Source of the DNA: Escherichia coli
GTDB lineage: Bacteria; Pseudomonadota; Gammaproteobacteria; Enterobacterales; Enterobacteriaceae
Assembly: GCF_003334355.1 (NCBI RefSeq)
Contig: NZ_QOWP01000021.1
Direction: 5' to 3' (one strand)
DNA: 64,000 bases
In this document: positions 42,900 to 44,255 of the stretch, in pieces
How positions within the stretch are numbered: the first letter of the stretch is position 1
How the letters are laid out: each line of letters opens with the position of its first letter
Position numbers and translations under genes: made by a program
Notes under the pieces: model-generated
The model's input: only the letters and a program-made list of their open reading frames with translations
The model's database searches: none
What the model was told of the DNA's origin: nothing

Positions 42900-43223
42900 T
42901 CAGTGTAAAACCGGCTTTATAATGTGACGGACGCATAACTCATCCATTACGGCTATTCCGAGCTGGGAGAGTGCGGGGCAGGACATTAGAGGACCGGATT
43001 CCATCAGGTCTGAAAGCAGGGCGCAGGCGATTTCCATGCCTTTTGTTTGCCCGTGCTGTCGCAGATAAAAACCTTCAAGCTCACGGGCAATGGCGGTTTC
43101 AATTTCATCCAGAGTGAGCTGCAGGTGGCGGTTGTGCTGATGGCAGATACTCAGCCAGGCGCAGGCAACCGCGCGGCGATATAACGCCAGCCGAAGTGAG
43201 AGGGGAAGAGTGCGTGATTTCAT
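42900..43223 (-). CDS. Hypothetical satellite protein (107 aa), translationally coupled upstream of primase
   Basis: ORF in polycistronic minus-strand operon with overlapping stop/start codons. Confidence 0.5.
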
Positions 43224-43447
43224 TGCACCACCTCCTTGTTCATCAGGTCATCCTGGCAACGCTGTACCACGCCATCAAGCTGTTCTGTCATCAGATAAAT
43301 CAGGGAAACCAGTTGCTCACATTGAGCACCTGCAGGTTTTTCATAGCAGTCCTGAAGAACAGCCATTCCGGTGACAAATTCCCCCACGTTACGAAGATGC
43401 TTGAGGCGGACAATATCGTCATAAGAAATTGCGGCGTGATTCATCAC
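43220..43447 (-). CDS. Hypothetical satellite protein (75 aa)
   Basis: ORF overlapping neighbours by 4 nt. Confidence 0.45.
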
Positions 43448-43995
43448 ATCACCTCCCCGGCAGGCAGCCGTGCAGAAAGGGAGAGCACATAATCACGGAC
43501 CAGCGAAAGGCGTGCAAAGCGCTCATCGCAGGCCACGGTGCGAAGCATACAGATGCGGGGTTGAGTGTCAGCACGGCGGATTGCGGCAAGCACAAAGACA
43601 TATTGCGGGTAAAACGGGGTGAGGGTTGTAGCCATGATGGCAGCCTCCATTGAGTAGCGGTTATTGCTACCACCGGAAACGCCAATTTCACTGGTGGCAG
43701 CCCGAACGGGGTTGGCGTAACCGGCCTCAATGGATACCGGCCAGCCCGAAGGCTGCCCCGCCCGGACTGCCATTATCTCGAAAGAACCACGGTGTACGCA
43801 TAAACACCACAGCCTGGAAAATGGGTGTGCCAGAGCTTCGACGAAAAAAAAGACGCTTGGCGCGTCTGGTGTCGCCATTGAGTTTCGCGGAACGCCAATT
43901 CCGGCTGCCGATTTTGCGGCAGCGGAAAAACTATACCTGGAAATGACTGCAGGATGCAAGCCAGAAAAATGGGGATTAATGCGTTCAGGCATCAT
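43444..43995 (-). CDS. Hypothetical satellite protein (183 aa)
   Basis: ORF overlapping neighbours; no recognisable motif. Confidence 0.5.
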
Positions 43996-44255
43996 TATGC
44001 ATCACATCCCCGTCCGCGGGCACTTATACGATCCGCCATCCATGCGCTTACCTCTGACTGTGCCCAGGCAACATTTTTACCACCAAGCGGGATCTGCTTC
44101 GGGAAAGCATCGCGGCTTATCAGGTCGTATATAGTTGAGCGGGACAAGCCGCATAAATGCATCACCTCGGGAAGACGTAAAAATCGCTCATGCTGGTTCA
44201 GCACAGGAAATAATGGCGCAGCCGGAGCTGGCGCAGAAACAGAAATATCATGCAT
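43995..44255 (-). CDS. alpA: AlpA/Vis-family phage transcriptional regulator
   Basis: 86-aa ORF; HTH-like [21 protein letters not shown] segment typical of the AlpA family. Confidence 0.75.

What the first reader, a model, noticed from the sequence alone, without database searches (positions are those of the whole stretch)
42900..44255. Four tightly coupled small genes between alpA and the primase, all of unknown function
Seen in sequence: alpA-like (86 aa), 183-aa, 75-aa and 107-aa ORFs overlap by 1-4 nt and read straight into the primase gene, forming one operon. Established knowledge: in P4 this region encodes helper-manipulating functions such as the Epsilon antirepressor and Kil. Inference: these ORFs may be analogous helper-interference or anti-defence factors, but none is recognisable to me.
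Basis: inference. Interest (0 to 1): 0.3.

Follow-up and report, generated by a model that had tools for sequence, protein, structure and literature searches.

The report
P4-type immunity and early operon
These four small reading frames are the start of the early operon of a P4-like phage satellite, including its RNA-based immunity switch hidden inside the "183-aa gene". Three of the four have known P4 counterparts, so the finding is largely ordinary.

Summary
The four minus-strand ORFs and their 1–4 nt overlaps are real, but they are not four unknown genes. The region is homologous to the left (early) operon of satellite phage P4.

- **alpA ORF:** 64% identical to P4 Vis.
- **107-aa ORF:** 69% identical to P4 Cnr, the copy-number regulator (DUF5375).
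- **183-aa ORF:** the P4 eta/kil nested pair. It contains a PLE-like promoter, a seqA/IsrK-like target RNA with its own terminator, the CI immunity RNA (Rfam C4, 84.6 bits) and the seqC target over the kil ribosome-binding site. Only its last 63 codons (Kil, Icd-like) evolve as a protein.
  - The first ~120 codons have dN/dS 0.88 and no codon periodicity. Even so, the frame is stop-free in 51 of 54 related loci, and the seqA-to-kil spacing stays in one phase mod 3 in 54 of 58.
  - This fits the P4 model in which translating eta prevents transcription termination.
- **Immunity specificity:** the CI determinants and both targets differ from P4 in a coordinated way, so the specificity is predicted to differ from P4.
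- **75-aa ORF:** a conserved protein (dN/dS 0.32) predicted to form a two-helix hairpin. It lies directly upstream of cnr in 57 of 58 and 80 of 80 related loci. P4 keeps only a 21-codon stub, which I read as a deletion. Its function is unknown, and the literature already lists it as such.
- **P4 epsilon:** no homologue in the window.

The parts
43995..44255 (-). vis/alpA homologue (86 aa): AlpA-family excisionase and transcriptional regulator, first gene of the late-promoter transcript
   Evidence: 64% identity to P4 ORF88 (Vis) over 84 aa, E 2e-39. Matches phrog_2790 and phrog_66, 'excisionase and transcriptional regulator'. dN/dS 0.15 across 54 loci.
43444..43995 (-). eta-type long ORF (183 aa) spanning the whole immunity region; its ATG overlaps the vis stop (TAATG). 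It is a translated leader, with kil nested at its 3' end.
   Evidence: 57% identity to the P4 eta ORF over its full length. Pfam Phage_ASH covers residues 21–125. The N-terminal ~120 codons have dN/dS 0.88 and flat codon-position diversity of 0.28/0.28/0.26. The frame is stop-free in 51 of 54 loci, against 0 of 54 and 1 of 54 for the other two frames and 2% of shuffles. The seqA-to-kil distance is 271, 274, 280 or 319 nt, all equal to 1 mod 3, in 54 of 58 loci.
43930..43959 (-). PLE-like constitutive promoter inside eta: -35 TTGCAT (43959–43954), 18-nt spacer, -10 TATAGT (43935–43930)
   Evidence: Both hexamers are conserved in all 59 aligned loci, P4 included. The Rfam isrK model starts at 43923, 7 nt after the -10. 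The generic promoter scan did not call it, because only 3 of 6 positions match in the -35.
43844..43936 (-). seqA / IsrK-like 5' RNA element. It carries the upstream targets b1 (TTGGCGT, 43898–43892) and a1 (CTCAATGG, 43882–43875), then an intrinsic terminator (hairpin 43867–43851, T8 43850–43844).
   Evidence: Rfam isrK RF01394 scores 76.7 bits (gathering 50) at 43846–43923. c4-a1b1 RF03163 scores 45.9 bits (gathering 46.7) at 43884–43936. The terminator was called. Some loci carry GACGC/GCGTC and others CACGC/GCGTG in the stem, a compensatory change. PMC4825925 states that IsrK is a structural homologue of P4 SeqA RNA.
43690..43777 (-). CI immunity RNA (C4 antisense RNA family), with specificity determinants a' (TCCATTGAG, 43734–43726, loop of hairpin 2) and b' (ACGCCAA, 43718–43712)
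   Evidence: Rfam C4 RF01695 scores 84.6 bits (gathering 45), full-length match. The P4 CI region gives the same hit at the equivalent position. On 28 distinct homologues, 100% of 756 pair cells are paired and 8 pairs change on both sides; slid controls pair at 28–52%.
43644..43685 (-). seqC: downstream targets b2 (TTGGCGT, 43685–43679) and a2 (CTCAATGGA, 43654–43646). a2 overlaps the kil Shine-Dalgarno GGAGG (43648–43644).
   Evidence: Perfect complement of b' (7 nt) and a' (9 nt). Across 59 loci b2 matches its own b' in 59 of 59, and a2 matches its own a' over at least 7 nt in 53 of 59. Pairings between loci with different alleles average 3.7–4.5 nt.
43444..43635 (-). kil (63 aa, Icd-like), nested in frame at the 3' end of eta; the first gene translated from PLE transcripts
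   Evidence: GGAGG-N8-ATG at 43635. NCBIfam NF033153 phage_ICD_like scores 59.3 bits against a cut-off of 25, on residues 132–178 of the long ORF. dN/dS 0.20 with excess third-position diversity. The stretch 43653–43546 is C-rich and G-poor (C/G 1.8–2.1), which resembles a rut site.
43220..43447 (-). 75-aa (74 aa from the ATG) conserved protein of unknown function, translationally coupled to kil upstream and cnr downstream
   Evidence: phrog_10110, unknown function, E 1.8e-42. No hit in Pfam, NCBIfam, PADLOC or PDB sequences. dN/dS 0.32. AlphaFold2 predicts a two-helix hairpin at pLDDT 78, with no significant structural match. Present directly upstream of cnr in 57 of 58 and 80 of 80 loci. No similarity to P4 epsilon or ORF151.
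42900..43223 (-). cnr homologue (107 aa, DUF5375): negative regulator of satellite copy number that acts on the alpha protein
   Evidence: 69% identity to P4 ORF106 (Cnr) over 102 aa, E 6e-52. phrog_5991. RefSeq name 'DUF5375 family protein'. dN/dS 0.15. PMC8628076 states that P4 cnr controls plasmid copy number.
40552..42885 (-). alpha primase-helicase (777 aa from ATG 42885), the last gene of the operon
   Evidence: phrog_2249 DNA primase, E 1e-223. The N-terminus aligns with P4 alpha. RefSeq places the start at the same ATG.

Best explanation
The region is the promoter-proximal part of the early (left) operon of a P4-like satellite integrated next to ssrA. The gene order is vis(alpA) – eta/kil – 75-aa gene – cnr – alpha.

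**Proposed mechanism (inferred by homology to P4 and to P1 c4/icd; nothing was measured here)**
- A constitutive promoter inside eta (the PLE equivalent) transcribes, in order, the seqA/IsrK-like element, its intrinsic terminator, the CI RNA and seqC.
- CI RNA is cut out of this leader.
- CI pairs through two short determinants with seqA and with seqC: a' TCCATTGAG and b' ACGCCAA.
- The a2 target overlaps the kil Shine-Dalgarno sequence, so kil is not translated.
- The untranslated, C-rich RNA is then terminated prematurely, Rho-dependently in P4.
- Kil, the 75-aa protein, Cnr and the primase therefore stay off. That is satellite immunity.

**Escape from immunity**
- When an upstream late promoter fires, ribosomes pass from vis into eta. 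The stop and start codons overlap.
- They translate straight through seqA, CI and seqC, which prevents termination and expresses the whole operon.
- The N-terminal two thirds of 'Eta' therefore matter as a translated track, not as an amino-acid sequence.

**Roles of the other products**
- Kil is an Icd-like toxic division inhibitor.
- Cnr restrains alpha-dependent replication.
- The 75-aa protein is a real, conserved helical-hairpin protein whose role is unknown.

The immunity specificity is predicted to differ from P4.
For: **Shown here**
- DNA homology to P4 at 69.5% over 79% of the query, and protein homology to Vis, Eta/Kil and Cnr.
- The same three Rfam hits in the same order and strand as in P4.
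- CI structure with 100% pairing and 8 double-change pairs.
- Three-way coordinated difference from P4 in seqA, CI and seqC.
- CI-to-target complementarity within each locus across 59 loci, against a cross-locus control.
- a2 overlaps the kil Shine-Dalgarno sequence.
- The kil part matches the Icd-like model.
- Selection: dN/dS is 0.15–0.32 for Vis, Kil, the 75-aa protein and Cnr, but 0.88 with no periodicity for the eta N-terminal part.
- The eta frame is open in 51 of 54 loci, against 0–1 of 54 in the other frames.
- Indels between seqA and kil are multiples of three in 54 of 58 loci.
- The eta ATG overlaps the vis stop in most loci.
- Satellite context: sid, psu, delta, integrase and ssrA.

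**From the literature**
- PMC10111431: CI lies within eta; C4 and isrK detect CI and seqA; eta is coupled to alpA; translating eta prevents termination; Kil is a truncated Eta.
- PMC4825925: CI pairs with seqA and seqC and causes premature termination.
- PMC8628076: cnr controls copy number.
Against: - No expression data exist for this element, so promoter activity, CI processing, Rho dependence and Kil toxicity are all inferred from P4.
- The generic sigma-70 scan did not call the PLE-like promoter.
- No late-promoter TGT-N12-ACA dyad was found upstream of alpA, so the upstream promoter is not located.
- c4-a1b1 scores just under its gathering threshold (45.9 against 46.7).
- In about 15% of loci a1 is complementary to a' over only 3–4 nt, so the seqA contact may be less constrained than seqC.
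- The element may be a defective prophage remnant. No att repeat of the ssrA 3' end was found in the window.
Confidence: 0.88

Rival explanations
1. One reading: four independent small protein genes of unknown function that act as helper-interference or anti-defence factors analogous to P4 Epsilon.
For: The ORFs are real and coupled. The 75-aa protein has no recognisable family beyond an unknown-function PHROG, and it occupies the slot where P4 has epsilon and orf151.
Against: Three ORFs are homologues of Vis, Eta/Kil and Cnr. There is no similarity to Epsilon and no PADLOC hit. The 75-aa gene coexists with epsilon and orf151 in 5 loci, so it is not a simple replacement for them.
Confidence: 0.08
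2. The 183-aa ORF encodes a genuine two-domain protein (an 'Ash family' domain plus an Icd-like domain), as Pfam and RefSeq annotate it, and the N-terminal domain has its own biochemical function.
For: Pfam Phage_ASH E 1.9e-29. phrog_6928, 'transcriptional repressor', E 1e-69. RefSeq annotates a 552-nt CDS. The frame is conserved and open. In P4 the full eta ORF is translated (PMC10111431).
Against: The N-terminal part has dN/dS 0.88 and equal diversity at all three codon positions, whereas every neighbouring gene shows clear purifying selection. Its conserved blocks coincide with the promoter, seqA, terminator, CI and seqC. The protein-family matches therefore most likely reflect nucleotide conservation imposed by RNA and promoter elements.
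Confidence: 0.08
3. The long ORF is a meaningless by-product. Only the RNAs and the 63-codon kil are functional, and the upstream 120 codons are open by chance in G+C-rich structured sequence.
For: There is no amino-acid constraint. Several other long ORFs overlap the region in other frames and on the other strand.
Against: The frame is open in 51 of 54 loci, against 0 of 54 and 1 of 54 in the alternative frames and 2% of shuffles. The seqA-to-kil spacing stays in one phase mod 3 in 54 of 58 loci, and the four exceptions are loci whose eta frame is broken (two of them also show split cnr matches). The start codon overlaps the vis stop. P4 experiments are cited in PMC10111431.
Confidence: 0.05
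4. The 75-aa protein is a partner or modulator of Cnr/alpha replication control rather than a helper- or host-directed factor.
For: It lies immediately upstream of cnr in 57 of 58 cnr-anchored and 80 of 80 self-anchored loci, usually with an ATGA stop/start overlap. P4 keeps the Shine-Dalgarno sequence, the ATG and a 21-codon stub that still ends in ATGA on the cnr start, so coupling into cnr appears to be preserved.
Against: An AlphaFold2 model of a linker fusion of the 75-aa protein and Cnr, built on a paired alignment, gave pLDDT 51 and pTM 0.30, which does not support a complex. P4 replicates and regulates copy number without this protein. PMC8628076 finds cnr in 90% of elements but the 75-aa family in 61%.
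Confidence: 0.3

Closest known systems
Satellite phage P4 left operon and immunity system (PLL–vis–[eta/kil with PLE, seqA, cI, seqC]–epsilon–orf151–cnr–alpha)
   Same: The order and strand of vis, eta/kil, cnr and alpha are the same. Nested eta/kil, the internal promoter, the seqA/IsrK-like element with its terminator, the CI RNA and seqC over the kil ribosome-binding site are all present at the equivalent positions.
   Different: - epsilon and orf151 are absent.
- A 75-aa gene is present where P4 has only a 21-codon stub.
- Both specificity determinants differ, together with their targets. The window has CTCAATGG and TTGGCG; P4 has TTCACAGG and GTGAGA. Window CI is complementary to the P4 targets over only 4 nt.
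- The eta spacer is 39 nt shorter.
- Late genes are ordered sid–psu–delta rather than sid–delta–psu.
Phage P1/P7 c4 antisense RNA – icd – ant immunity module (Rfam C4 RF01695 and c4-a1b1 RF03163)
   Same: A processed antisense RNA has two determinants (a', b'). Target pairs lie upstream (a1, b1) and downstream (a2, b2). The downstream pair covers the ribosome-binding site of an Icd-type small ORF whose translation is needed for downstream expression (mechanism from established knowledge of P1).
   Different: The downstream cargo here is replication genes (cnr, alpha), not an antirepressor. The whole module is embedded in a long translated ORF coupled to an AlpA-type gene.
Salmonella Gifsy-1 IsrK sRNA locus (Rfam isrK RF01394)
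   Same: The 5' element matches the isrK model over its full length, including the Rho-independent terminator. PMC4825925 calls IsrK a structural homologue of P4 SeqA RNA and describes a processed downstream RNA.
   Different: In Gifsy-1 the short RNA activates translation of orf45–anrP in trans and leads to AntQ expression. No such role is shown or needed here, and the downstream genes differ.
The 75-aa family of P4-like satellites noted by Moura de Sousa and Rocha (PMC8628076)
   Same: It has the same size, the same position between the immunity region and alpha, the same association with cnr, and is likewise absent from P4.
   Different: New here: purifying selection (dN/dS 0.32), a predicted two-helix hairpin, translational coupling on both sides, and the 21-codon remnant in P4.

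Membership tests
P4/P1-type antisense-RNA immunity (CI/C4 RNA with seqA and seqC targets) | An RNA matching the C4 covariance model with the three-helix fold | tested here: met
   RF01695 scores 84.6 bits against a gathering score of 45. On 28 homologues, 100% of pair cells are paired and 8 pairs change on both sides.
P4/P1-type antisense-RNA immunity (CI/C4 RNA with seqA and seqC targets) | An upstream target on the same transcript, complementary to the RNA's determinants (seqA; a1, b1) | tested here: met
   b1 is a perfect 7-nt complement and a1 a perfect 8-nt complement in the window. RF01394 scores 76.7 bits. RF03163 scores 45.9 bits, just under its gathering score of 46.7.
P4/P1-type antisense-RNA immunity (CI/C4 RNA with seqA and seqC targets) | A downstream target overlapping the ribosome-binding site of the first translated small ORF (seqC; a2, b2) | tested here: met
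   b2 is 7 nt. a2 is 9 nt and overlaps GGAGG, which lies 8 nt before the kil ATG. Conserved with allele-matched changes across 59 loci.
P4/P1-type antisense-RNA immunity (CI/C4 RNA with seqA and seqC targets) | A constitutive promoter directly upstream of seqA | tested here: inconclusive
   TTGCAT-N18-TATAGT is conserved in all 59 aligned loci and ends 7 nt before the isrK model start. It falls below the generic scan threshold, and no transcript data are available.
P4/P1-type antisense-RNA immunity (CI/C4 RNA with seqA and seqC targets) | CI is processed from the leader and causes premature (Rho-dependent) termination | not testable with these tools
   The only indirect evidence is a C-rich, G-poor stretch at the 5' end of kil.
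P4 eta/kil nested genes | A long ORF starting at the end of vis, spanning PLE–seqA–cI–seqC, in frame with a short Icd-like ORF at its 3' end | tested here: met
   Frame conservation is shown.
P4 eta/kil nested genes | Translation of eta or kil prevents termination; Kil is toxic | not testable with these tools
   Taken from the P4 literature as summarised in PMC10111431.
Cnr (P4 ORF106, DUF5375) | Full-length similarity to P4 Cnr and a position immediately upstream of alpha | tested here: met
   69% identity over 102 of 107 residues, with a 14-nt spacer to the alpha ATG.
Vis / AlpA family | Similarity to P4 Vis and to AlpA-type excisionase/regulator profiles | tested here: met
   64% identity to P4 ORF88; phrog_2790 and phrog_66. 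No NCBIfam hit. The Pfam AlpA model was not run on this ORF.
P4 Epsilon (helper derepression protein) | Sequence similarity of the 75-aa ORF, or of any ORF in the window, to P4 Epsilon | tested here: not met
   BLASTP gave no alignment at E <= 100. tblastn of Epsilon against the whole window gave a best E of 2.4.
P4-like satellite (core set int, psu, delta, sid, alpA, alpha) | Co-localised homologues of the core components | tested here: met
   sid phrog_6165, psu phrog_6366, delta phrog_603 and alpha phrog_2249; int phrog_1; alpA; ssrA adjacent.

The most novel reading that the evidence does not exclude
The 75-aa helical-hairpin protein is an uncharacterised core component of the P4-like early operon that the model satellite P4 happens to have lost. 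It could be a Cnr/alpha co-regulator of replication, or a host- or helper-directed factor used by the many satellites that lack Epsilon. Studying it would expose a part of satellite biology that P4 genetics could never have shown.
Probability: 0.3. Interest if true: 0.45.

Novelty: new member of a known kind. Interest (0 to 1): 0.25.

Why it matters
**Annotation**
- The locus shows how an RNA-based immunity switch can look like a protein gene. RefSeq calls the 183-aa frame an 'Icd-like protein' and Pfam calls its middle an 'Ash' domain.
- The amino-acid sequence of that part is not under selection. What is conserved is a promoter, two target sites, a terminator and an antisense RNA, plus the open frame itself.
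- PF10554 has been used as the 'epsilon' marker for finding P4-like satellites (PMC8628076). It actually detects this immunity region, while true Epsilon is absent here and in most related loci sampled.

**Biology**
- Seven b alleles and about nine a alleles occur in 31 combinations across 59 loci. This points to modular, reassorting immunity specificities among co-resident satellites.

**Open question**
- The one real unknown is the 75-aa gene. It is well defined and can be tested experimentally.

Tried and rejected
1. **Epsilon or ORF151 identity for the 75-aa ORF.** No similarity was found.
2. **Family or fold assignment for the 75-aa protein.** Pfam, NCBIfam, PADLOC and PDB sequence searches gave nothing. 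Foldseek against PDB and BFVD returned only generic helical hairpins at E > 2. A profile search of 1.8 billion representatives found only 29 small clusters of the same family.
3. **A complex of the 75-aa protein with Cnr.** AlphaFold2 on a linker fusion with a locus-paired alignment gave pLDDT 51 and pTM 0.30, which is uninformative.
4. **A P2-type late-promoter dyad (TGT-N12-ACA) upstream of alpA.** None was found there; the only nearby matches lie next to sid.
5. **RNA duplex energies for CI against its targets.** Shared flanking stems dominated the results, so they were not used. Exact complementarity was counted instead.
6. **att repeat of the ssrA 3' end and P4 type-I ori repeats.** Neither was found in or next to the element.
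7. **Primary P4 papers.** Forti 1999 (PMC94026) and Sabbattini 1995 (PMC176756) are not held. Their content is cited through PMC10111431 and PMC4825925.
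Full report
**Observation**

All four ORFs lie on the minus strand at the stated coordinates:
- alpA-like, 44255..43995 (86 aa)
- 183-aa ORF, 43995..43444
- 75-aa ORF, 43447..43220 (GTG start; 74 aa from the ATG at 43444)
- 107-aa ORF, 43223..42900

The junction sequences are TAATG, GTGATGTGATG and CAATGA, which give overlaps of 1, 4 (or 1) and 4 nt. Shine-Dalgarno sequences precede the second and third junctions.

The primase most likely starts at ATG 42885, 14 nt after the 107-aa stop. This agrees with the P4 alpha N-terminus and with RefSeq's call in a 100% identical record, E. coli D3.

**What the region is**

blastn against phage records finds satellite phage P4 as the only extended match, at 69.5% identity over 79% of the query. 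The match covers P4 ORF88, the old 'cI' ORF, ORF106 and the start of alpha.

| Window ORF | P4 counterpart | Identity |
|---|---|---|
| 86 aa (alpA-like) | Vis (ORF88) | 64% |
| 183 aa | eta reading frame, full length | 57% |
| 107 aa | ORF106 (Cnr) | 69% |
| 75 aa | Epsilon, ORF151 | no match |

Neither Epsilon nor ORF151 is encoded anywhere in the 64-kb window.

The surroundings confirm a P4-like satellite beside ssrA:
- sid, 45136–45921
- psu, 45918–46472
- delta, within the ORF 46372–46746
- a Hachiman HamA/HamB pair in the cargo hotspot, 47172–50697
- an integrase, 51278–52477
- tmRNA, 52662–53024

**The 183-aa ORF is the immunity region**

Rfam places three families inside it, all on the coding strand:
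- isrK, 43846–43923, 76.7 bits (gathering 50)
- c4-a1b1, 43884–43936, 45.9 bits (gathering 46.7)
- C4 antisense RNA, 43690–43777, 84.6 bits (gathering 45)

P4 gives the same three hits in the same order inside eta.

The literature states that C4 and isrK detect P4 CI RNA and its seqA target, and that CI is encoded within eta (PMC10111431). It also states that IsrK is a structural homologue of P4 SeqA RNA, and that CI pairs with seqA and seqC to cause premature termination (PMC4825925).

The anatomy in window coordinates, re-read, is:

| Element | Sequence | Coordinates |
|---|---|---|
| -35 | TTGCAT | 43959–43954 |
| -10 | TATAGT | 43935–43930 |
| b1 | TTGGCGT | 43898–43892 |
| a1 | CTCAATGG | 43882–43875 |
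| terminator hairpin and T8 | – | 43867–43844 |
| CI RNA | – | 43777–43690 |
| a' (in CI) | TCCATTGAG | 43734–43726 |
| b' (in CI) | ACGCCAA | 43718–43712 |
| b2 | TTGGCGT | 43685–43679 |
| a2 | CTCAATGGA | 43654–43646 |
| kil Shine-Dalgarno | GGAGG | 43648–43644 |
| kil ATG | ATG | 43635 |

a2 overlaps the kil Shine-Dalgarno sequence. Kil is 63 aa and matches NCBIfam's Icd-like model at 59.3 bits against a cut-off of 25.

**Comparative tests**

I anchored a search on Cnr, which is independent of the immunity region. It returned 58 loci from Enterobacter, Citrobacter, Pantoea, Edwardsiella, Raoultella, Rosenbergiella and other genera.

*CI structure.* On 28 distinct 88-nt homologues, every one of 756 pair cells forms a standard pair and 8 pairs carry changes on both sides. 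Versions of the structure slid by 1–3 columns pair at only 28–52%.

*CI-to-target pairing.* The two determinants exist as about nine a alleles and seven b alleles, in 31 combinations.

| Comparison | Result |
|---|---|
| b' with its own b2 | perfect 7-nt complement in 59 of 59 loci |
| b' with its own b1 | perfect 7-nt complement in 58 of 59 loci |
| a' with its own a2 | at least 7 nt in 53 of 59 loci |
| a' with its own a1 | at least 7 nt in 50 of 59 loci |
| loci with different alleles | mean 3.7–4.5 nt |

The window differs from P4 at all three sites in a coordinated way. The window has TTGGCG/CGCCAA/TTGGCG and CTCAATGG/CCATTGAG/CTCAATGG. P4 has GTGAGA/TCTCAC/GTGAGA and TTCACAGG/CCTGTGAA/TTCACAGG. 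Window CI matches the P4 targets over only 4 nt, so this element should be heteroimmune to P4.

**Is the long ORF a gene?**

| Segment | dN/dS | Codon-position diversity (1st/2nd/3rd) |
|---|---|---|
| Vis | 0.15 | 0.18/0.13/0.49 |
| Cnr | 0.15 | 0.17/0.12/0.43 |
| Kil | 0.20 | 0.15/0.13/0.39 |
| 75-aa protein | 0.32 | 0.27/0.23/0.46 |
| eta, ~120 codons upstream of kil | 0.88 | 0.28/0.28/0.26 |

The first four evolve as proteins. The eta N-terminal part shows no constraint on its amino acids.

That frame is nevertheless maintained:
- It has no stop over about 340 nt in 51 of 54 loci. The other two frames are stop-free in 0 of 54 and 1 of 54, and shuffled sequences in 2%.
- The distance from seqA to the kil ATG takes the values 271, 274, 280 and 319 nt, all equal to 1 mod 3, in 54 of 58 loci. 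The four exceptions are loci whose eta frame is broken; two of them (L060, L061) also show split Cnr matches.
- The eta ATG overlaps the vis stop in most loci.

This is the signature expected if translation of eta matters but its product does not. It agrees with the P4 result that translation of eta lets late-promoter transcripts escape immunity-dependent termination (PMC10111431, summarising Forti et al. 1999).

The Pfam 'Phage_ASH' hit on residues 21–125 and the PHROG 'transcriptional repressor' hit therefore most likely reflect nucleotide conservation of RNA and promoter elements. PMC8628076 used PF10554 as its 'epsilon' profile, so that marker actually reports this immunity region.

**The 75-aa gene**

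It has a strong Shine-Dalgarno sequence and is coupled to kil upstream and cnr downstream. It is under purifying selection. AlphaFold2 predicts two long helices, residues 8–33 and 39–73, at pLDDT 78. Invariant residues include D10, L14, H16, G21, R62 and C63.

No sequence or structural library gives a meaningful match. The family is small, with 29 clusters among 1.8 billion representatives.

It lies directly upstream of cnr in 57 of 58 Cnr-anchored loci, including five that also carry epsilon and orf151. In the 80 best loci found by searching with the 75-aa family itself, the architecture is always Vis–Eta–75aa–Cnr–primase.

P4 retains the Shine-Dalgarno sequence, the ATG and a 21-codon stub that still ends in ATGA on the cnr start. 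P4 therefore appears to have lost the gene by internal deletion.

The existence of a prevalent 75-aa protein of unknown function absent from P4 was already reported: 61% of P4-like elements carry it, and 90% carry cnr (PMC8628076). A linker-fusion AlphaFold2 model with Cnr was uninformative. Its function stays open; I give a replication-control role about 0.3.

**Mechanism**

The steps below are shown only at the level of sequence features. They are inferred by homology to P4 and to P1 c4/icd.
1. The internal promoter constitutively makes the leader.
2. CI is processed from it and pairs with seqA and seqC.
3. Pairing at a2 hides the kil ribosome-binding site.
4. The untranslated, C-rich RNA (C/G 1.8–2.1 at 43653–43546) is terminated, which keeps kil, the 75-aa gene, cnr and alpha silent.
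5. Transcripts that start upstream of alpA carry ribosomes from vis into eta and read through.

Promoter activity, processing, Rho dependence and Kil toxicity were not and could not be tested here. The upstream late promoter was not located.

**Verdict**

- This is a typical P4-like early operon with its RNA immunity switch. It is a new member of a well-known kind, with a non-P4 immunity specificity and without Epsilon.
- Interest is low, apart from the defined, testable unknown (the 75-aa gene) and the annotation lesson about 'Ash'/'epsilon'.

Noticed in passing
window 47172-50697 (+): A low-G+C (0.33–0.37) two-gene Hachiman defence system sits in the satellite's cargo hotspot between delta and the integrase. 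HamA (313 aa, PDLC00163, E 1.7e-135) is followed by the HamB helicase (860 aa, PDLC00186, 1135 bits, E reported as 0).
   Followed up: partly
L002 (P4) 7305-7439, minus strand: P4 keeps the Shine-Dalgarno sequence, the ATG and a 21-codon stub ORF (MPYQLMQPARNAVICHREKSK) of the 75-aa gene. The stub still ends in ATGA on the cnr start. P4 seems to have deleted about 190 bp of a gene that is otherwise nearly universal in its relatives, while keeping translational coupling into cnr.
   Followed up: yes
window 43621-43935 (-), residues 21-125 of the 183-aa ORF: Pfam PF10554 (Phage_ASH) matches the stretch that encodes the promoter, seqA, terminator, CI RNA and seqC, and that stretch shows no amino-acid constraint. 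PMC8628076 used this profile as the 'epsilon' marker of P4-like satellites. True Epsilon is absent here, from 51 of 58 Cnr-anchored loci and from 80 of 80 loci anchored on the 75-aa protein.
   Followed up: partly
L013, and about eight other loci of L004-L061: In some loci the upstream a1 target no longer matches the locus's own CI loop (only 3–4 nt), while the downstream a2 target does. L013, for example, has a1 CTCAATGG but a' CCGTTAGA and a2 TCTAACGG. This suggests recombination between seqA and CI, or weaker constraint on a1.
   Followed up: partly
L016, L018, L057, L060, L061: These copies have a broken or truncated eta frame. L018, L057, L060 and L061 also have a seqA-to-kil distance out of phase (not 1 mod 3), and L060 and L061 show split Cnr matches. 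They are probably decaying satellites.
   Followed up: partly
window 45136-46746 (+): The late genes are ordered sid-like (261 aa), psu (184 aa), delta/Ogr-like zinc finger. P4 has sid–delta–psu. Two TGT-N12-ACA dyads (45079–45096 and 45117–45134) lie just upstream of sid and may be the delta/Ogr-responsive sites.
   Followed up: no
window 35370-40073 (+) and 40100-40550: A 1567-aa ORF with a repetitive, passenger-like N-terminal region and a C-terminal region resembling an autotransporter beta-domain (judged by eye from the translation; no profile was run) lies just beyond the 3' end of alpha. No repeat of 12 nt or more of the ssrA 3' end and no P4 type-I ori/crr repeats were found there, so the distal boundary of the satellite is undefined.
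   Followed up: partly
window 3257-3328 (-), 9926-10103 (-), 270-343 (+), 32389-32461 (+): Other Rfam hits in the window: MicA sRNA, two naRNA4 (CssrE) copies, tRNA-Arg and tRNA-Met. This is ordinary enterobacterial chromosome content.
   Followed up: no
phage records H5-H25 (Stx-converting phages, phiP27), query part = window 43617-43776: The CI/C4 segment alone matches, at 71–74% identity, regions annotated as antirepressor (Ant), Rha-family or regulatory proteins in many Stx phages. C4-type RNAs there also appear to be annotated as parts of protein genes.
   Followed up: no
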